NCBI GenBank assembly: GCA_964426965.1
Contig: CAYRSI010000001.1
Coordinates: 1 to 47,797 of the forward strand
From: an uncultured Candidatus Saccharibacteria bacterium
GTDB taxonomy: Bacteria; Patescibacteriota; Minisyncoccia; RBG-13-40-8-A; JAUWHN01
Length of the DNA stretch: 47,797 nucleotides
Direction: 5' to 3'
Shown in pieces: positions 104-27,919 of the stretch; position 1 is the stretch's first letter, and every line of letters begins with the position of its first letter. Below the pieces are notes generated by a model. The model saw only the letters and a program-made list of their open reading frames with translations, was not told the origin of the DNA and made no database searches. Position numbers and translations under genes: made by a program.

Positions 104-176
104 TAGCTTTTTAGCTTTTTAGCTTTTTAGCTTTTTAGGAATTCTAAGAAGCTACAAGCTACAAGCTACAAGCTAG
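104..176. repeat. AGCT-word spacer element, copy a: (AGCTTTTT)x4 - GGAATTCTAAGA - (AGCTACA)x3
   Basis: Tandem 8-mers at 105-136 and 7-mers at 150-170 read directly. The reverse complement shares an identical core of about 49 nt with 7981-8053. Fills the rpsQ|rplN spacer. Confidence 0.9.
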
Positions 177-419
177 TTATAGTACTATCCATCTTTTATC
201 TTTTGAAATCGGCCTGCTCTCCTGAATCGTTACTTTGTCTCCAATCTTATACCTGTTGTCAGGATCATGAGCTTTGTATTTCTTATTAATTTTATAACGT
301 TTTTTATAGCGCGGATGTTGTTTTAATCGCTCCACCAAAACAACAATGGTTTTATTCATTTTATCAGAAATCACTATTCCCTTTAAAGTTCGTTTAATTG
401 TTTTCTTTTTCTTTTGCAT
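177..419 (-). CDS. rpsQ: 30S ribosomal protein S17
   Basis: 80-aa [32 protein letters not shown] is the S17 core, and the operon position fits. Confidence 0.95.
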
Positions 420-1009: not shown

Positions 1010-1561
1010 GTTAGTTCGCTTCGCGAACGGGTGAAATGGATGATCGCTCACTCCGTTCGCTTGGGGGATCGGTCCGCAACTGCGAACCTTGGATGAAATA
1101 GATTACTTTATTAAAAATTTTCTATATGCTTGGAGTTTAAAGAATAATTTGTCTAGTGTCGGTAAAATTTTCTTAAAATCATTTTGAGAAATATAGCCTA
1201 GTTTACCAGCTAAAATTAGACAGGCTTTTACTTCTAACAATGAGCCTATGCTCTGGCTAATAAATTTAGCAAAGTCTTTTTTAGTATTTTTGCCACTTCC
1301 TTCAGCGATATTTAAAACAATCGAAATAGCTGCTCGTTTTATCTGTGATGTTAAACCAAATAATTCCTCTTTAGGAAATTTCTTAGCCAGTTTATAAATC
1401 TCCAAAACAAAATCATTGGCTAAATGGTAAATATCTAATGTTTCAAAATGATATTTTTTGTATATGGGATTTTTTATTTACGATCATTTCAACCAAACGA
1501 GCGGAGCGAGTGATCAACCATCAACCAAATCGCCGAAGGCGATGATCAACCAGTTCGAGTA
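1010..1561 (-). repeat. IVS-like inverted-repeat cassette, copy 1 (cargo: four-helix-bundle gene)
   Basis: Flanks 1010-1102 and 1406-1561 are built from TTGGWTGATC/GATCAACCA words plus GC hairpins (1014-1028 GTTCGC-TTC-GCGAAC, 1529-1543 ATCGCC-GAA-GGCGAT). Same architecture as 4002-4472 and 27472-27919. Confidence 0.85.
1103..1405 (-). CDS. four-helix-bundle protein (23S rRNA intervening-sequence protein family)
   Basis: FPKEELFGLTSQIKRAAISIVLNIAEGSGKNTKKDFAKFISQSIGSLLEVKACL is the family signature (QxxRAAxSIxxNIAEG...GS). The frame stays open upstream to 1477 without any ATG/GTG/TTG, so the true 5' end is uncertain. Confidence 0.85.
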   Translation of the reverse strand: MEIYKLAKKFPKEELFGLTSQIKRAAISIVLNIAEGSGKNTKKDFAKFISQSIGSLLEVKACLILAGKLGYISQNDFKKILPTLDKLFFKLQAYRKFLIK

Positions 1562-2209
1562 CTACTCGAACTTCTCCCCTTTATATACCCAGACTTTTAC
1601 TCCAATTACTCCATAGGTAGTGTAAGCATTAATATAAGCATAGTTGATATCAGCTCTAAGGGTTTGGAGAGGAACCTTTCCTTTTCTTAACCATTCTTGT
1701 CGAGCCATTTCTGTTCCACCAAGTCTGCCAGCAACAGAAATCTTGACTCCTTTAACGTCAGGGTCTTGAATAACTTTATCTAAAGTCTGCTTAATTACTC
1801 GCCTAAACGGCCTTCTTCTTTCAAGTTGTTCTGCAATGTTCTGAGCAATAATTTCAGCATGGGTTTCGGGTTTTCTTATTTCCTCAATGTCTATTTTTAT
1901 ATCCAATCCCTTGGTTTGCCCTTTAAATATTTTGCTGATTATTTCTCTTTTTAAATCCTGAACCCCTGCTCCTCCTCTTCCAATAATAATTCCTGGCCGA
2001 GCAGTATAAATTTTAATATTAAGTAAATTAGCTGAGCGAGTAATCTCAATTTCTTTTATTGCTGTCTGCTTTAATTTAGCTATAATAAACTCTCGCAGCT
2101 TGTAATCCTGCTTTAAAAACTCCTTGTATTTCTTTTTATTAAACCATCGAGACTTCCAATCGGCAGTATAACCTAATCGAAAGGCCCGTGGATGAACTTT
2201 ATGAGACAT
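1562..2209 (-). CDS. rpsC: 30S ribosomal protein S3
   Basis: MSHKVHPRAFRLGYTADWKSRWF... with the GRLGGTEMAR motif. Operon position fits. Confidence 0.95.
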   Translation of the reverse strand: MSHKVHPRAFRLGYTADWKSRWFNKKKYKEFLKQDYKLREFIIAKLKQTAIKEIEITRSANLLNIKIYTARPGIIIGRGGAGVQDLKREIISKIFKGQTKGLDIKIDIEEIRKPETHAEIIAQNIAEQLERRRPFRRVIKQTLDKVIQDPDVKGVKISVAGRLGGTEMARQEWLRKGKVPLQTLRADINYAYINAYTTYGVIGVKVWVYKGEKFE

Positions 2210-4001: not shown

Positions 4002-4105
4002 GTTCGCTTCGCGAACGGTTGACCGATCGCCTTTGGCGATCTTGGATGATCATTCGCTTAGCTCATTTGGATGATCAACCGCTTCGCGGTTTTGGTTGAA
4101 GTGGA

Positions 4106-4156
4106 TTATTTTATTAAAAATTTCCTGTATGCTTGAAGCTTGAAAAATAATTTATC
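4106..4156 (-). pseudogene. 3'-terminal remnant of a four-helix-bundle gene (last 16 codons plus stop)
   Basis: Translates to DKLFFKLQAYRKFLIK*, identical to the C-terminus of the 1103-1405 protein. All 8 nucleotide differences between the two are synonymous. Confidence 0.85.
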
Positions 4157-4338
4157 TAAGGTCTACTTTTTTTCTTCTTCCAATCCCTAATCAAAATATC
4201 GTGCTTTCGGCCGCCGAAGATGATTTCTAGTTTTTGACGTTCGCGCCAGCCGAATTTTTCTATTAATCTTTTCGGTAGGTTAATTGAATAGCTGTGGCTA
4301 CTCACTTTTTGTAATTTTCTAACAAATTTTTGTGCCAT
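4156..4338 (-). CDS. AbrB/MazE/SpoVT-type DNA-binding protein, copy 1 (60 aa)
   Basis: MAQKFVRKLQKVSSHSYSINLPKRLIEKFGWRERQKLEIIFGG... has a swapped-hairpin-like pattern (S-x-x-[IV]-x-[LI]-P-K-x-[LI]). Start set at ATG 4336-4338; the longer track ORF reads through the operator repeats. Confidence 0.75.
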   Translation of the reverse strand: MAQKFVRKLQKVSSHSYSINLPKRLIEKFGWRERQKLEIIFGGRKHDILIRDWKKKKSRP

Positions 4339-4345
4339 ATTTATA

Positions 4346-4389
4346 GTATATACGATAGTATATACGTTCGTATATATGTGCGTATATAC
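4346..4389 (-). promoter_or_regulatory. Phased array of palindromic octamers GTATATAC (x3 perfect plus 1 degenerate, 12-bp period), a putative operator/promoter of the AbrB-like gene
   Basis: GTATATAC at 4346, 4358 and 4382, and GTATATAT at 4370. It ends 8 nt before the ATG, and there is no SD. Confidence 0.6.
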
Positions 4390-4472
4390 GATCCATTTCA
4401 ACCATTTCAACCAAGCGAACGAAGTGAGCGATCAACCAAGGTCGCCGCAGGCGACCGATCAACCAATTCGAC

Positions 4473-6205: not shown

Positions 6206-6380
6206 GTAATCAGCGAATAACGAATTCATTACGAATTTACGAATAATAAATACCGGGGTCTAATCCGGTATTGCATAAAAATCGGTTAGCACCCTGTTAT
6301 TTGTTTTATTGAAAATAATTACAAAAATTCATAATTTCGAAAATTCGTATATTCGAAATAGATTCGTTATTCGTTGATGA
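6206..6380. repeat. CGAAT-word spacer element: long imperfect inverted repeat around an ATACCGG hairpin
   Basis: CGAATAACGAAT (6214-6225) against ATTCGTTATTCG (6362-6373), with further CGAAT/ATTCG words on both arms. Central hairpin ATACCGG-N8-CCGGTAT at 6250-6271. Confidence 0.85.
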
Positions 6381-7980: not shown

Positions 7981-8053
7981 TAGCTTCTTAGCTTGTAGCT
8001 TGTAGCTTCTTAGAATTCCTAAAAAGCTAAAAAGCTAATTCCTAAAAAGCTAG
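7981..8053. repeat. AGCT-word spacer element, copy f (opposite orientation to copy a)
   Basis: TAGCTTGTAGCTTGTAGCTTCTTAGAATTCCTAAAAAGCTAAAAAGCTA equals the reverse complement of part of 104-176. The arms can fold as an imperfect hairpin around GAATTC. Confidence 0.9.
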
Positions 8054-8123
8054 ATTAGTTTTCAATGATTAGTTTAACGTTTATTTTAAAATATGTCAAC
8101 TATCTTTGACGTTTTCGACCTTT

Positions 8124-13612: not shown

Positions 13613-13671
13613 GGATTATTATTAAGGATTGGGAGAAATAAACTCTACGTAACTTAATTTAAATTTAATCA

Positions 13672-13705
13672 TTCCGTATTTAATCCGATCGAGATAAATA
13701 CGGAA
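13672..13705. repeat. 34-nt hairpin TTCCGTATTT-N14(CGATCG)-AAATACGGAA, copy 1
   Basis: 10-bp arms. It is the reverse complement of the copy at 14348-14381 except for 2 nt. Confidence 0.85.
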
Positions 13706-13740: not shown

Positions 13741-14304
13741 ATGCCAATTAAACTTCCTGTTACAGAAAAATTTCTTTGGGGGCTGTTTAATTTTGTAGAT
13801 GCAGCTGAAGAAATATTAAACTTTTTTATAACTGATCAACCCTATGGATTCAGAAGACTTGAACAATTCAGCTGGCCTGAAATTAAACTCTTTCAGAGTA
13901 ACTGGGAATTTCAATGCAAAAAAAAGAAAAAGAATTTTGCCAAATTGGTTTATGATCTTAAGCAGGGCGGATATATTAAAACTATTAAAATCAAAAATGA
14001 TTCAGCTGTTATGCTTACGCCTAAAGGAATAGATAAAGTTTTTACTATAAAAATGAGACTGGCAGATAAGAAACGAAGGATAGATAAAAAATGGCAGATG
14101 GTTCTTTTTGATATTCCGGAAAAGAAAAGAAAGCAAAGGGATATGTTTAGAAAAAATCTTCAATATTTAGGCTACAAAAAACTTCAAAGAAGTATCTGGG
14201 TTTGCCCATATGATGTGTTAAATGAAACAAAAGATTTGATTAAAAGATATAGGCTTGAGCCGCATGTGGAATTATTATTAGTTAAAAAAATTGGTCTTGG
14301 CTAG
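13741..14304 (+). CDS. PaaX-like regulator (winged helix plus PaaX-C / Cas2-like ferredoxin fold)
   Basis: WQMVLFDIPEKKRKQRDMFRKNLQYLGYKKLQRSIWVCP matches the PaaX C-terminal domain pattern. The N-terminal part has a wHTH-like segment. Confidence 0.7.
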   Translation: MPIKLPVTEKFLWGLFNFVDAAEEILNFFITDQPYGFRRLEQFSWPEIKLFQSNWEFQCKKKKKNFAKLVYDLKQGGYIKTIKIKNDSAVMLTPKGIDKVFTIKMRLADKKRRIDKKWQMVLFDIPEKKRKQRDMFRKNLQYLGYKKLQRSIWVCPYDVLNETKDLIKRYRLEPHVELLLVKKIGLG

Positions 14305-14347: not shown

Positions 14348-14381
14348 TTCCGTATTTATCTCGATCGGAAAAAATACGGAA
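14348..14381. repeat. 34-nt hairpin TTCCGTATTT-N14(CGATCG)-AAATACGGAA, copy 2 (inverted)
   Basis: See 13672-13705. The two copies bracket the PaaX-like gene. Confidence 0.85.
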
Positions 14382-14442
14382 TTTATTCTTGTAAAAAATT
14401 TTGATTGTGTTAACATAAAATCTTAAAATCGTTCTTTAAAAA

Positions 14443-27078: not shown

Positions 27079-27150
27079 AATTCCTCCCGAATTACGAATC
27101 AAAAGCGAATTGCGAATTCGTAATTCGATTAATATTCGTAATTCGTAGGT
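27079..27150. repeat. CGAAT-word spacer element (HIT|rpsU)
   Basis: CGAATTACGAAT and two ATTCGTAATTCG copies form inverted repeats. Same word family as 6206-6380 and 30144-30159. Confidence 0.8.
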
Positions 27151-27471: not shown

Positions 27472-27566
27472 ATTAGCTCGCTTCGCGAGCGGTTGACCAG
27501 TCGCCTACGGCAACTTTGGATGATCGGTCCGACGGCCATCGGACCTTGGATGATGGATGAAATGGA

Positions 27567-27603
27567 TTACTTTATTAAAAATTTCGAAATGATATTTTTT
27601 GTA
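27567..27603 (-). pseudogene. four-helix-bundle gene remnant with internal deletion (5' 19 nt fused to last 5 codons plus stop)
   Basis: 27567-27584 matches 1103-1120 (KFLIK*). 27585-27603 matches 1444-1462 (the KKYHFE region) with 1 mismatch. Confidence 0.75.
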
Positions 27604-27644
27604 CATAGAATTGACAAATCTATCTCTTTTTCTCTTTCATAGAT

Positions 27645-27821
27645 TTATTTCTTTTTCTTCTTCCAATCCTTAATCAAAATATCATGCTTTCGGCCGCCGA
27701 AGAGAATTTCTAGTTTTTGACGTTCGCGCCAGCCGAATTTTTCTATTAATCTTTTCGGTAGGTTAATTGAATAGCTGTGGCTACTCACTTTTTGTAATTT
27801 TCTAACAAATTTTTGTGCCAT
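27645..27821 (-). CDS. AbrB/MazE/SpoVT-type DNA-binding protein, copy 2 (58 aa)
   Basis: Only a handful of nucleotide differences from the 4156-4338 copy over ~170 nt, by eye. Start at ATG 27819-27821. Confidence 0.75.
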   Translation of the reverse strand: MAQKFVRKLQKVSSHSYSINLPKRLIEKFGWRERQKLEILFGGRKHDILIKDWKKKKK

Positions 27822-27828
27822 ATTTATA

Positions 27829-27860
27829 GTATATACGATAGTATATACGTTCGTATATAC
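27829..27860 (-). promoter_or_regulatory. Phased GTATATAC array (x3, 12-bp period)
   Basis: GTATATAC at 27829, 27841 and 27853. One 12-bp unit fewer than copy 1. Confidence 0.6.
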
Positions 27861-27919
27861 GAACCATCTCAACCAAACGAACGAAGTGAGTGATCAACCA
27901 AGCGAAGCGATCAACCAAT

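What the first reader, a model, noticed from the sequence alone, without database searches (positions are those of the whole stretch)
27472..27919. Cargo replacement: an AbrB-like gene has displaced the four-helix-bundle gene, leaving remnants that evolved under selection
- Copies 2 and 3 carry near-identical AbrB/SpoVT-like genes (4156-4338 and 27645-27821), with only a handful of differences over ~170 nt by eye.
- In copy 2, the 51 nt after the AbrB-like stop (4106-4156) translate to DKLFFKLQAYRKFLIK*, identical to the C-terminus of the intact four-helix-bundle protein of copy 1. All 8 nucleotide differences between the two are synonymous.
- That remnant therefore came from a functional, selected paralog rather than from drift.
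- In copy 3, 27567-27603 is the same gene reduced to 19 nt of its 5' region fused directly to its last 5 codons plus stop.
- The scaffold (flanks) has been conserved while the cargo was exchanged. This is the behaviour of a cassette or integration platform rather than of ordinary intergenic DNA.
Basis: seen in the sequence. Interest (0 to 1): 0.75.

Follow-up and report, generated by a model that had tools for sequence, protein, structure and literature searches.

The report
Decaying hairpin-flanked gene cassettes in essential operons
Three intergenic inserts in this small bacterial genome are worn-down copies of one hairpin-bracketed gene cassette that resembles the 'intervening sequences' of ribosomal RNA genes. 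The small AbrB-like regulator gene is an add-on that sat beside the four-helix-bundle gene and moved between copies, rather than directly displacing it.

Summary
The sequence observations are real. Copies 2 and 3 carry AbrB-like genes that are 96% identical. Copy 2 keeps the last 19 codons of a four-helix-bundle (4HB, PF05635) gene; all 10 differences from copy 1 are synonymous (P about 5e-6). Copy 3 keeps the 4HB start plus its last five codons.

The 'cargo replacement' reading is only partly right.
- A related contig (L015) has the same flanks with AbrB and 4HB side by side.
- In copy 3, AbrB lies upstream of the surviving 4HB start codon.
- So the fuller cassette is: 5' hairpin array, variable slot (AbrB or antisense ORFs), 4HB, complementary 3' array.
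- Copies 2 and 3 lost 4HB through two independent, recent deletions.
- Copy 1 lost the slot gene and has ATA in place of ATG.

Some exchange did occur. The AbrB segment was copied recently between copies 2 and 3 (dS 0.1), although their flanks diverged long ago. At the same site, relative L131 has 4HB only.

The non-coding flanks are 93-97% identical between lineages whose ribosomal protein genes are 75-80% identical. The two flanks pair into a long stem. 4HB genes from many phyla show the same bracketing.

Best reading: an element like the 23S rRNA intervening sequence, sited in mRNA operon spacers. The processing mechanism is inferred, not shown.

The parts
27472..27566 (-). Copy 3, 3' flank. 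GATCATCCAA linkers alternate with GC-rich mini-hairpins. The terminal hairpin GCTCGCGAAGCGAGC (27476-27490) lies 4 nt before the ATG of the HIT gene.
   Evidence: The hairpin carries a compensatory double change relative to GTTCGCGAAGCGAAC in copies 1 and 2.
27567..27606 (-). Copy 3, 4HB remnant. The ATG plus 22 nt of the 5' end is fused out of frame, at a GAAA microhomology, to the last 5 codons and stop. About 323 nt are deleted.
   Evidence: compared with the intact genes in L118 and L131.
27607..27644 (-). Copy 3 spacer between AbrB and the 4HB start. It contains a 9-bp hairpin and the conserved ATTTGTCAA box. On the plus strand this box reads TTGACAAAT (27611-27619), a leftover -35 element of an antisense promoter.
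   Evidence: The same box forms a perfect TTGACA-N17-TATAAT promoter that drives antisense ORFs in L001 and L118.
27645..27821 (-). Copy 3, AbrB/MazE-like gene (58 aa).
   Evidence: PF04014 scores 16.5 bits, below the cut-off. However, 17 of 20 family members hit PF04014 (best E 3e-7). The AlphaFold model is beta-beta-alpha-beta-beta, and its top structural matches are AbrB/MazE proteins.
27822..27860 (-). Copy 3, operator-like region with three GTATATAC palindromes (27829, 27841, 27853) directly upstream of the AbrB ATG.
   Evidence: AbrB homologues elsewhere have three repeats of a different palindrome: GTAATTAC in L007 and CAGTACG in L004.
27861..27919 (-). Copy 3, 5' flank. TTGGTTGATC linkers, the conserved module ACTCACTTCGTTCGT, and TTGGTTGAGATGG. 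It begins right after the hisS stop codon.
4002..4105 (-). Copy 2, 3' flank. The terminal hairpin GTTCGCGAAGCGAAC (4002-4016) directly abuts the ATG of rplB (L2).
   Evidence: It is 97.1% identical (101/104) to the L131 flank at the same site.
4106..4162 (-). Copy 2, 4HB remnant: the last 19 codons including the stop (TLDKLFFKLQAYRKFLIK*).
4156..4338 (-). Copy 2, AbrB/MazE-like gene (60 aa). Its last three codons and stop are read from the deletion junction.
4339..4472 (-). Copy 2, operator repeats (GTATATAC at 4346, 4358, 4382) and the 5' flank. The flank starts right after the rplW (L23) stop codon.
   Evidence: The 5' flank is 93% identical to that of L131.
1013..1102 (-). Copy 1, 3' flank. 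The terminal hairpin (1014-1028) lies 4 nt before the ATG of rplP (L16).
1103..1465 (-). Copy 1, 4HB gene (PF05635 / TIGR02436): 120 codons with no internal defect, but ATA at the conserved start position.
   Evidence: (118 bits; 108.6 bits).
1466..1571 (-). Copy 1, A-rich junction and 5' flank. The outer hairpin AGTTCGAGT/ACTCGAACT overlaps the last codons and the stop of rpsC (S3). Relative to L118, the slot gene and the antisense promoter are missing.

Best explanation
**What it is.** The finding is one of three decayed copies of a hairpin-bracketed gene cassette. The cassettes sit in intergenic spacers of essential operons (S3-L16, L23-L2, hisS-HIT) in a Patescibacteria-type genome.

**Full layout, read in the direction of the host operon:**
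1. A 5' array of TTGGTTGATC linkers and small GC-rich hairpins.
2. A variable slot. It holds either an AbrB/MazE-like regulator gene with three GTATATAC operators, or unrelated antisense ORFs driven by a TTGACA-N17-TATAAT promoter.
3. [quoted passage not shown]
4. A 3' array complementary to the 5' array.
5. A terminal hairpin ending 0-4 nt before the next host start codon.

**History (shown).**
- Copies 2 and 3 lost 4HB by two independent, recent internal deletions.
- Copy 1 lost the slot gene and its ATG.
- The AbrB segment was copied recently between copies 2 and 3 by recombination within the conserved proximal flank.

**How it works (inferred).**
- The cassette is transcribed as part of the host operon.
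- The two flanks pair into a long imperfect stem that loops out the cargo.
- As in rRNA intervening sequences, a double-strand-specific RNase (RNase III) cuts this stem. That separates the host cistrons from the cargo RNA.
- The flanks therefore have to stay intact for the essential neighbouring genes to be expressed.
- 4HB is conserved across lineages. This may be selection acting on the element, but individual copies decay freely.
For: **Shown**
- L015 has the same flank family with AbrB and 4HB in tandem.
- L131 has 4HB only at the L23-L2 site. L018 and L118 have an antisense ORF plus 4HB at the S3-L16 site.
- The deletion end points differ between copies 2 and 3.
- The remnant has 10 of 10 synonymous differences, P about 5e-6.
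- 4HB has dN/dS about 0.05, and its dN (0.04-0.12) is below that of the flanking ribosomal proteins (0.09-0.24).
- AbrB in copies 2 and 3 has dS 0.10, while their 3' flanks are 79% identical and made of different modules.
- The flanks are 93-97% identical to L131 against 75-80% for host genes. Identity drops exactly at the L23 stop codon and the L2 ATG.
- All nine cassettes examined show 22-61 inter-flank base pairs. Whole-cassette folds give z = -5.3, -9.6 and -4.2.
- The linker words change together on both sides: TTGGTTGA/TCATCCAA, TTGTTCGA/TCGAACAA, TTGTTTGA/TCAAACAA.
- Across phyla, 26 of 70 4HB genes have flank complementarity at z < -3, against 0 of 67 control genes.

**From the literature**
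- The Coxiella 23S intervening sequence is 428 nt, has a 28-bp terminal inverted-repeat stem, carries a PF05635 ORF, and is excised by RNase III (PMC4990558).
- PF05635 ORFs occur in rRNA insertions of Candidate Phyla Radiation bacteria (PMC11270868).
Against: - There is no transcript or cleavage evidence.
- Sense and antisense flank duplexes are about equally stable (sense is better in 6 of 9). Selection acting on RNA rather than DNA is therefore not demonstrated.
- No RNase III gene lies among the ORFs scanned in the window.
- The flanks are conserved in sequence, including hairpin loops. That goes beyond what a plain stem needs and hints at protein recognition or recent transfer.
- No perfectly intact AbrB-4HB cassette of this flank family was found. 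L015 lacks the last five 4HB codons.
- The flank modules also occur without cargo, inserted in frame in a glycosyltransferase gene (L110, L130). They can therefore spread on their own.
Confidence: 0.6

Rival explanations
1. The flanks are an integration platform comparable to an integron attachment site, and a site-specific recombinase swapped an AbrB cassette in for the 4HB cassette, leaving scraps of the old cargo.
For: - At the L23-L2 site, L131 carries 4HB only, while the window carries AbrB plus a 57-nt remnant.
- AbrB moved recently between old scaffolds.
- The slot upstream of 4HB holds different genes in different genomes.
- The asymmetric linker (T in the 5' flank, A-version in the 3' flank) recalls the extra-helical bases that set strand choice in attC sites.
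Against: - AbrB and 4HB coexist in tandem in L015, and both are present in L001.
- Copy 3 keeps the 4HB ATG downstream of AbrB.
- The two 4HB losses have different end points, and one lies at a 4-nt microhomology. This is typical of spontaneous deletion.
- The cassettes are single and dispersed rather than arrayed.
- No integrase or other recombinase was found among the 25 window ORFs scanned.
Confidence: 0.15
2. AbrB and 4HB form a toxin-antitoxin-like pair, with AbrB/MazE as the autoregulated antitoxin and 4HB as the toxin. Copies 2 and 3 are orphan antitoxins left after toxin loss. Copy 1 is a toxin gene silenced by a start-codon mutation.
For: - The gene order is AbrB then 4HB, with a 38-40 nt gap.
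- Palindromic operators lie upstream of AbrB.
- The protein has a MazE-type fold.
- The window shows either AbrB without 4HB, or 4HB without ATG and without AbrB.
Against: - Most close 4HB cassettes have no AbrB (L131, L118, L018, L016, L132).
- Five of the nine other AbrB-family contexts examined have unrelated neighbours and no 4HB.
- In L001 an antisense gene separates the two.
- PF05635 is not a known toxin family, and 4HB and AbrB gave no PADLOC hit.
Confidence: 0.08
3. The flanks are ordinary short mobile palindromic repeats (REP/BIME or Rickettsia-palindromic-element type). They pile up in spacers on their own, and the small genes between them are unrelated passengers. There is no cassette as a unit.
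For: - Flank modules occur in frame inside a glycosyltransferase gene without cargo (L110, L130).
- Module number and order differ between copies.
- Other spacers of the same operon carry ORF-less word-repeat hairpins.
Against: - The 5' and 3' arrays are always in inverted orientation around 4HB.
- The innermost stem (TTGGTTGAAATGG / CCATTTCATCCAA) abuts the cargo, and the 3' arm starts right after the 4HB stop codon.
- Linker words change together on both sides.
- 4HB genes in unrelated phyla, with unrelated repeat words, show the same bracketing.
Confidence: 0.12
4. This is an assembly artefact. The near-identical AbrB segments caused mis-joins, so one of the copies does not exist as drawn.
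For: Contig L012, from another sample, joins L23 and the copy-2 5' half to the copy-3 3' half and HIT. Assemblers therefore do cross over in this repeat.
Against: - The window keeps the canonical L23-L2 order.
- Copy 2's flanks match the independent L131 cassette at the same site at 93-97%.
- The deletion end points of copies 2 and 3 lie outside the shared segment.
Confidence: 0.03

Closest known systems
Intervening sequences (IVS) of 23S rRNA genes that carry the S23p / PF05635 ORF (Leptospira, Coxiella; also rRNA insertions in Candidate Phyla Radiation bacteria)
   Same: - Size is about 430-550 nt.
- Terminal inverted repeats form a long stem around the ORF.
- The ORF belongs to the same protein family (PF05635/TIGR02436).
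- The host transcription unit is highly expressed.
- Distribution is sporadic, and ORF-less versions exist.
   Different: - These cassettes sit between protein-coding genes of mRNA operons, not inside rRNA helices.
- The stems are built from modular linker-plus-hairpin arrays.
- They have an extra variable gene slot (AbrB or antisense ORFs).
- RNase III excision is untested here.
DGR accessory protein Avd (bAvd)
   Same: A distantly related four-helix-bundle fold. There are weak hits to PF22296 (19.8 bits) and NF033474 (21.7 bits).
   Different: The scores are far below the cut-offs (40 and 80 bits). No reverse transcriptase or template/variable repeat lies next to any cassette in the window.
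REP/BIME elements and REPINs that flank RAYT genes; Rickettsia palindromic elements
   Same: - Short GC-rich palindromes alternate with conserved linkers in operon spacers.
- Inverted arrays bracket a gene.
- Modules can insert in frame into coding genes (L110, L130).
   Different: - The bracketed gene is not a Y1 transposase.
- The arrays occupy the whole spacer, from stop codon to start codon.
- They are more conserved than the neighbouring ribosomal protein genes.
Integron gene cassettes (ORF plus attC)
   Same: Folded imperfect inverted repeats with conserved mismatches, and exchangeable cargo on a conserved scaffold.
   Different: - No integrase, attI or tandem array.
- The repeats lie on both sides of the cargo rather than as one attC at its 3' end.
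- Cargo loss here is by deletion.
Type II toxin-antitoxin operons with AbrB/MazE-fold antitoxins
   Same: A small AbrB/MazE-fold protein, palindromic operators, and a position upstream of a second small gene.
   Different: The partner is not a known toxin, and the pairing is not conserved across genomes.

Membership tests
23S rRNA intervening sequence (IVS) element | Inserted in a 23S (or 16S) rRNA helix | tested here: not met
   All cassettes lie between protein-coding genes: S3-L16, L23-L2, hisS-HIT, S17-L14, L35-L20. Rfam finds no rRNA at these places.
23S rRNA intervening sequence (IVS) element | Terminal inverted repeats form a stem that encloses the ORF | tested here: met
   There are 22-61 inter-flank pairs in 9 of 9 cassettes. 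Fold z-scores are -4.2 to -9.6.
23S rRNA intervening sequence (IVS) element | ORF of the S23p / PF05635 family | tested here: met
   Copy 1 scores 118.3 bits against a 33.8 cut-off. Copies 2 and 3 keep only remnants.
23S rRNA intervening sequence (IVS) element | Excised from the transcript by RNase III without re-ligation | not testable with these tools
   This needs RNA end mapping or in vitro cleavage.
PF05635 / TIGR02436 four helix bundle protein | Profile score above the curated cut-off over the full length | tested here: met
   PF05635 scores 118.3 bits (cut-off 33.8) and TIGR02436 scores 108.6 bits (cut-off 24). The profile match starts upstream of the TTG that the ORF finder used.
DGR Avd | NF033474 / PF22296 above the cut-off, with an adjacent reverse transcriptase and TR/VR repeats | tested here: not met
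   The scores are 21.7 bits (cut-off 80) and 19.8 bits (cut-off 40). None of the 25 window ORFs scanned is a reverse transcriptase.
AbrB/MazE/SpoVT (PF04014) | Profile score above the gathering cut-off | tested here: inconclusive
   The window proteins score 16.5-18.4 bits against a 24.7 cut-off. However, 17 of 20 family members match, best E 3.1e-7.
AbrB/MazE/SpoVT (PF04014) | Swapped-hairpin beta-beta-alpha-beta-beta fold | tested here: inconclusive
   The AlphaFold model (pLDDT 69) has that order of elements. The top PDB matches are AbrB, MazE, SpoVT, Sso7c4 and C56, with TM 0.43-0.52, but E is at least 0.36.
Type II toxin-antitoxin system | Antitoxin paired with a recognised toxin, with the pairing conserved across genomes | tested here: not met
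   4HB and AbrB give no PADLOC hit. AbrB homologues have unrelated neighbours in L004, L007, L008, L009 and L013. Most 4HB cassettes lack AbrB.
Integron cassette | Tandem cassette array next to intI/attI, with a single attC 3' of each ORF | tested here: not met
   The cassettes are solitary, 3 kb and 23 kb apart, inside essential operons. Repeats lie on both sides. No integrase was found among the scanned ORFs; the scan of the window was partial.
REP/BIME-REPIN with RAYT | Palindromic units mobilised by a Y1 (RAYT) transposase that they flank | not tested
   Palindromic units and linkers are present. The rest of the genome is not available to look for a RAYT. One AbrB-homologue contig (L013) has a Y1_Tnp gene about 1 kb away.

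The most novel reading that the evidence does not exclude
PF05635 four-helix-bundle genes, together with the inverted word-repeat or hairpin arrays that bracket them, form one widespread class of operon-embedded elements in bacteria. The classical rRNA intervening sequences would be only the best-known special case.

In this reading the Avd-like 4HB protein recognises the repeated words of its own flanks, as RNA or DNA. It is needed for the element's processing, maintenance or spread, possibly by recruiting a reverse transcriptase as Avd does. That would explain three observations: 4HB is conserved more strongly than ribosomal proteins between lineages, individual copies decay, and the non-coding flanks are conserved at rRNA-like levels.
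Probability: 0.2. Interest if true: 0.85.

Novelty: new variant of a known kind. Interest (0 to 1): 0.6.

Why it matters
Why 23S rRNA intervening sequences carry a conserved ORF has been unclear for some 30 years, and so has the way they spread. If the same element type lives in mRNA operon spacers, it offers many natural variants for study: intact, cargo-swapped, ORF-deleted and empty hairpins.

These variants could be used to test three things:
- what the 4HB protein binds;
- whether the stems are RNase III sites;
- how an insertion inside an essential ribosomal protein operon is tolerated.

The flanks are also a rare case of non-coding DNA conserved more strongly than the ribosomal protein genes next to it.

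There is a practical point too. The near-identical AbrB segments cause chimeric metagenome contigs, as in L012.

Tried and rejected
- **Conserved AbrB partner.** I looked for one among neighbours in nine contexts. Neighbours are unrelated by BLASTP. TA reading rejected.
- **Antisense slot ORFs** (L018 69 aa, L001 89 aa, L118 120 aa). They are not similar to each other (L018 and L001 compared directly) and have no significant Pfam or PADLOC family.
- **Rfam.** No match for any cassette, even at E up to 1.
- **Flank patterns in viral contigs, and cassette DNA in plasmids and phages.** No match.
- **Metagenome scan with the 5' flank pattern.** It gave 30 hits, of which only 3 belong to the family. 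The rest are chance matches, many of them one repeated sequence shared by several contigs.
- **GTDB representative genomes.** None holds a close relative of this 4HB (best 57% identity), so the lineage is poorly sampled.
- **Recent horizontal transfer as the reason for 4HB conservation.** The dS values (1.1 to saturated) are as high as for host genes. Transfer is not needed for 4HB, but stays possible for the flanks.
- **Strand test for selection at the RNA level.** Sense versus antisense duplex energy is inconclusive.
- **Orientation bias of 4HB genes.** 57 of 60 share the orientation of co-directional neighbours, which equals the baseline for ordinary genes (132 of 140). It is not informative.
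- **Sigma-70 scan.** It found no convincing promoter for AbrB.
- **Programmed frameshift from AbrB into the copy 2 remnant.** Rejected, because the remnant frame has a TAG directly upstream and no start codon.
Full report
**Context**

The window is chromosomal DNA of a Patescibacteria-type organism, with about 36% G+C.
- The S10/spc ribosomal protein operon runs on the minus strand: S17, L29, L16, S3, L22, S19, L2, L23, L4, L3, S10, tuf, fusA.
- Elsewhere there are ftsA/ftsZ, hisS and other housekeeping genes.
- The closest named homologues of the cassette genes come from Patescibacteria and Microgenomates MAGs.

Three intergenic inserts share repeats. All are co-oriented with the host genes.

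| Copy | Coordinates | Site |
|---|---|---|
| 1 | 1013-1561 | between rpsC (S3) and rplP (L16) |
| 2 | 4002-4472 | between rplW (L23) and rplB (L2) |
| 3 | 27472-27919 | between hisS and a HIT-family gene |

**Check of the observation**

*AbrB genes.* The AbrB-like genes of copies 2 and 3 are 96.0% identical over 58 codons (167/174 nt). The operator region and the first ~114 nt of the gene are essentially identical.

*Copy 2 remnant.*
- The minus strand of 4106-4156 reads DKLFFKLQAYRKFLIK*, exactly the C-terminus of the copy 1 protein, with eight third-position differences.
- The homology extends two more codons, to 4162.
- That makes 19 codons with ten differences, all synonymous. Every one of the 10.0 synonymous sites has changed, and none of the 44 non-synonymous sites has.
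- Only 9 of 2,000,000 random placements of ten substitutions left the peptide unchanged.
- The remnant cannot be translated: a TAG lies directly upstream in its frame and it has no start codon. The pattern is therefore historical.
- Zero changes at 44 non-synonymous sites means no more than about 0.07 neutral substitutions per site have accumulated since the gene was broken (my calculation).

*Copy 3 remnant.* 27567-27606 is the 4HB ATG plus 22 nt, joined out of frame at a GAAA microhomology to the last five codons and stop.

*Correction for copy 1.*
- The copy 1 gene (1103-1465) is a clear PF05635/TIGR02436 member (118 and 109 bits).
- But its conserved start position is ATA.
- Copy 3 and all close homologues (120-aa proteins beginning MYKKYHF) have ATG there.
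- None of the three copies in the window is demonstrably intact.

**What the full cassette looks like**

I followed the two proteins into public assemblies.

*AbrB family.* It is small: 22 clusters, all without source names or named as Patescibacteria.

*The 4HB family.* It is very large, but close relatives (80-93% identity, 120 aa) are few. Their contexts are decisive:

| Locus | Site | Content |
|---|---|---|
| L015 | S17-L14 | Same flank family; CGTATATAC operators; 56-aa AbrB; 40-nt spacer; 4HB 89% identical to copy 1, lacking only its last five codons |
| L131 | L23-L2 (same as copy 2) | 5' flank, intact 4HB, 3' flank; no AbrB |
| L018/L019/L020 | S3-L16 (same as copy 1) | Antisense ORF of 69 aa, then 4HB |
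| L118 | S3-L16 (same as copy 1) | Antisense ORF of 120 aa with a perfect TTGACA-N17-TATAAT promoter, then 4HB |
| L001 | L35-L20 | AbrB, a promoter-equipped antisense ORF of 89 aa, and a distant 4HB (33% identity), between inverted GAAATTAGAAATT word repeats |

The ATTTGTCAA box just upstream of the 4HB ATG in copy 3 and L015 is the leftover -35 element of that antisense promoter.

The layout is therefore: 5' array, variable slot, 4HB, 3' array.

- AbrB occupies the slot, not the place of 4HB.
- Copy 3 is an L015-like cassette with about 323 nt of 4HB deleted.
- Copy 2 has lost everything from the AbrB stop codon to 4HB codon 101.
- Copy 1 matches an L118-like cassette without the slot gene and promoter (junction AAAAAA|TCC).
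- The two 4HB deletions have incompatible end points, so they are independent.

**Was cargo exchanged?**

Partly, yes.
- AbrB of copies 2 and 3 differ by dS 0.10.
- Their 3' flanks consist of different hairpin modules and are 79% identical over the alignable part, with 29 gap columns.
- These flanks evolve very slowly (next section). The flanks of copies 2 and 3 are therefore much older than the AbrB split.
- So the AbrB-operator segment was copied between pre-existing cassettes. The likely route is recombination using the shared proximal module TTGGTTGATC-ACTCACTTCGTTCGT-TTGGTTGA (92% identical).
- AbrB at 84-87% identity also sits in the unrelated L001 scaffold.
- At the L23-L2 site, the state seen in L131 (4HB only) contrasts with the window (AbrB plus remnant).

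The 'displacement' of 4HB was deletion.

**The flanks**

In transcript orientation:
- The 5' flank is a series of TTGGTTGATC linkers separated by perfect small GC-rich hairpins of varying sequence. It also contains a conserved non-palindromic module.
- The 3' flank is the mirror image, with GATCATCCAA linkers.
- The 3' flank ends in GTTCGCGAAGCGAAC, 0-4 nt before the next host ATG.
- Copy 3 has the compensated variant GCTCGCGAAGCGAGC.

The linker motif occurs 10 times in the window against 1.15 expected. Nine of these lie in the cassettes. The T version is always on the 5' side and the A version always on the 3' side. Each linker duplex therefore has one conserved central mismatch.

Predicted folds pair the two flanks into a long stem around the cargo:
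- copies 1 and 2 have z = -5.3 and -9.6; copy 3 has z = -4.2, though its minimum-energy fold does not pair the flanks as one continuous stem;
- there are 22-61 inter-flank pairs in all nine cassettes examined.

Related cassettes use other linker words that change together on both sides:
- TTGTTCGA with TCGAACAA in L016;
- TTGTTTGA with TCAAACAA in L132.

This is covariation in favour of the stem.

Between the window and L131:
- L4, L23 and L2 are 75-80% identical in DNA, with dS at least 1.3 and dN 0.09-0.16.
- The 3' flank is 97.1% identical (101/104) and the 5' flank 93%.
- Identity falls to about 80% exactly at the L23 stop codon and the L2 start codon.

Either every position of the flanks is under strong constraint, or the flanks were transferred recently. 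I cannot separate these.

Flank modules also occur alone, in frame inside a glycosyltransferase gene (L110, L130). This resembles Rickettsia palindromic elements.

**Selection on 4HB**

- Between cassettes of different genomes, dN/dS is about 0.05.
- dN is 0.04-0.12, lower than for the adjacent ribosomal proteins S3, L16 and S17.
- dS is near saturation, as for host genes.
- Yet within this genome the gene was destroyed twice and lost its ATG once.

This combination is typical of genes that serve an element rather than the host. It is also compatible with redundancy among copies.

**Generality**

For 70 diverse PF05635 genes from GTDB genomes, I compared the 150 nt upstream with the 150 nt downstream.

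| Set | Median z | z < -3 | z < -5 |
|---|---|---|---|
| 4HB genes (n = 70) | -2.3 | 26 | 7 |
| Control genes in the same loci (n = 67) | +0.2 | 0 | 0 |

- The strongest cases come from Bacteroidota, Planctomycetota, Saprospirales, WWE3, Gottesmanbacteria and Paceibacterota.
- In these, the ORF is bracketed directly by inverted arrays of 6-7-nt words, such as GTGACTG, CCAGATC or AACTAAC.
- ORF-less hairpins in the same style fill other spacers of the window's ribosomal operon.
- The co-orientation of 4HB genes with their neighbours (57 of 60) is no higher than for ordinary genes (132 of 140).

**Comparison with what is known**

The closest known thing is the 23S rRNA intervening sequence.
- In Coxiella it is 428 nt, has a 28-bp terminal inverted-repeat stem, carries a PF05635 ORF (S23p), and is excised by RNase III. 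Its origin and purpose are unknown (PMC4990558).
- PF05635 ORFs also occur in 16S and 23S insertions of CPR bacteria (PMC11270868).
- PF05635 is a relative of the DGR protein Avd (PMC10053308). The window protein fails the Avd models, and no reverse transcriptase is adjacent.
- I found no paper describing such elements in mRNA operon spacers. This is absence in a limited library, not proof.

**Mechanism**

*Shown:* the anatomy, the deletion history, the recent AbrB transfer, the flank conservation and the pairing potential.

*Inferred:*
- The cassette is read through from the host operon.
- The stem is cut by RNase III as in rRNA.
- The terminal hairpin protects or positions the 5' end of the downstream essential mRNA.
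- This is why the flanks cannot decay while the cargo can.

*Open:* the strand test for RNA-level selection was inconclusive, and the extreme sequence conservation suggests that a protein reads the flanks.

**Verdict**

- The object is best described as a new variant of the IVS type of element.
- The specific 'replacement' story is modest. The surrounding picture is what makes the locus worth following: ultra-conserved hairpin scaffolds inside ribosomal protein operons, a 4HB gene under strong constraint, and phylum-wide bracketing.

Noticed in passing
window 13671-13705 and 14348-14382 (gene 13741-14304): A PaaX_M-like gene is bracketed by the same 35-nt palindromic hairpin on both sides (94% complementary, 642 nt apart). 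This is a second kind of gene sitting between inverted repeats in this genome.
   Followed up: partly
window 119-180, 2782-2860, 7989-8057; also 6209-6378 and 27088-27145: Other spacers carry ORF-less hairpins built from short tandem words (AGCTTGT / AAAAGCT; CGAATT). The first three lie in the S17-L14, S19-L22 and fusA-tuf spacers. The style matches the inverted word arrays that bracket 4HB genes in other phyla, so they may be empty versions of such elements.
   Followed up: partly
L012 (JGI 3300005782 Ga0079367_1013096), 2366-2860: This contig joins L23 and the 5' half of copy 2 to the 3' half of copy 3 and the HIT gene, with the crossover inside the near-identical AbrB segment. It is most likely an assembly chimera. 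A real recombination would delete 23 kb of essential genes.
   Followed up: yes
L110 1915-1955 and L130 563-622: Flank modules (TTGGTTGATC, hairpin, TTGGTTGAAATGG) are inserted in frame inside a glycosyltransferase gene on the opposite strand. They add a peptide such as ISTKRSDQPFQPF. The insert length differs between the two homologues.
   Followed up: partly
L018 880-1045; L131 270-902: The same ribosomal operons hold further 4HB-related sequence. L018 has a possible C-terminal remnant upstream of S3 (PF05635, E 0.008, below the cut-off). L131 has a 210-aa PF05635-containing ORF upstream of L4.
   Followed up: partly
window 1463-1465: The conserved start codon of the copy 1 4HB gene is ATA instead of ATG, while the other 119 codons are undamaged. 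This could be a very recent inactivation, a non-canonical start, or a consensus error.
   Followed up: partly
window 43613-43685 vs 45678-45750; 44332-44638: A 73-nt direct repeat (93% identical) with adjacent hairpins brackets a 2-kb segment holding a trypsin-like peptidase gene and an HhH-GPD gene. The peptidase ORF (43755-44756) contains an internal tandem duplication of about 156 nt.
   Followed up: no
window 45819-45848, 46354-46383, 46565-46594: Three copies of a 30-nt palindrome (AATACAAGGACATTCAGTGTCCTTATTTTT) lie around ORF 45841-46536.
   Followed up: no
L004 2925-2985, L007 798-835, window 27829-27860: Each AbrB homologue has its own triple palindromic operator directly upstream of the ATG: CAGTACG, GTAATTAC and GTATATAC respectively. 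Operator and protein appear to have co-evolved.
   Followed up: partly
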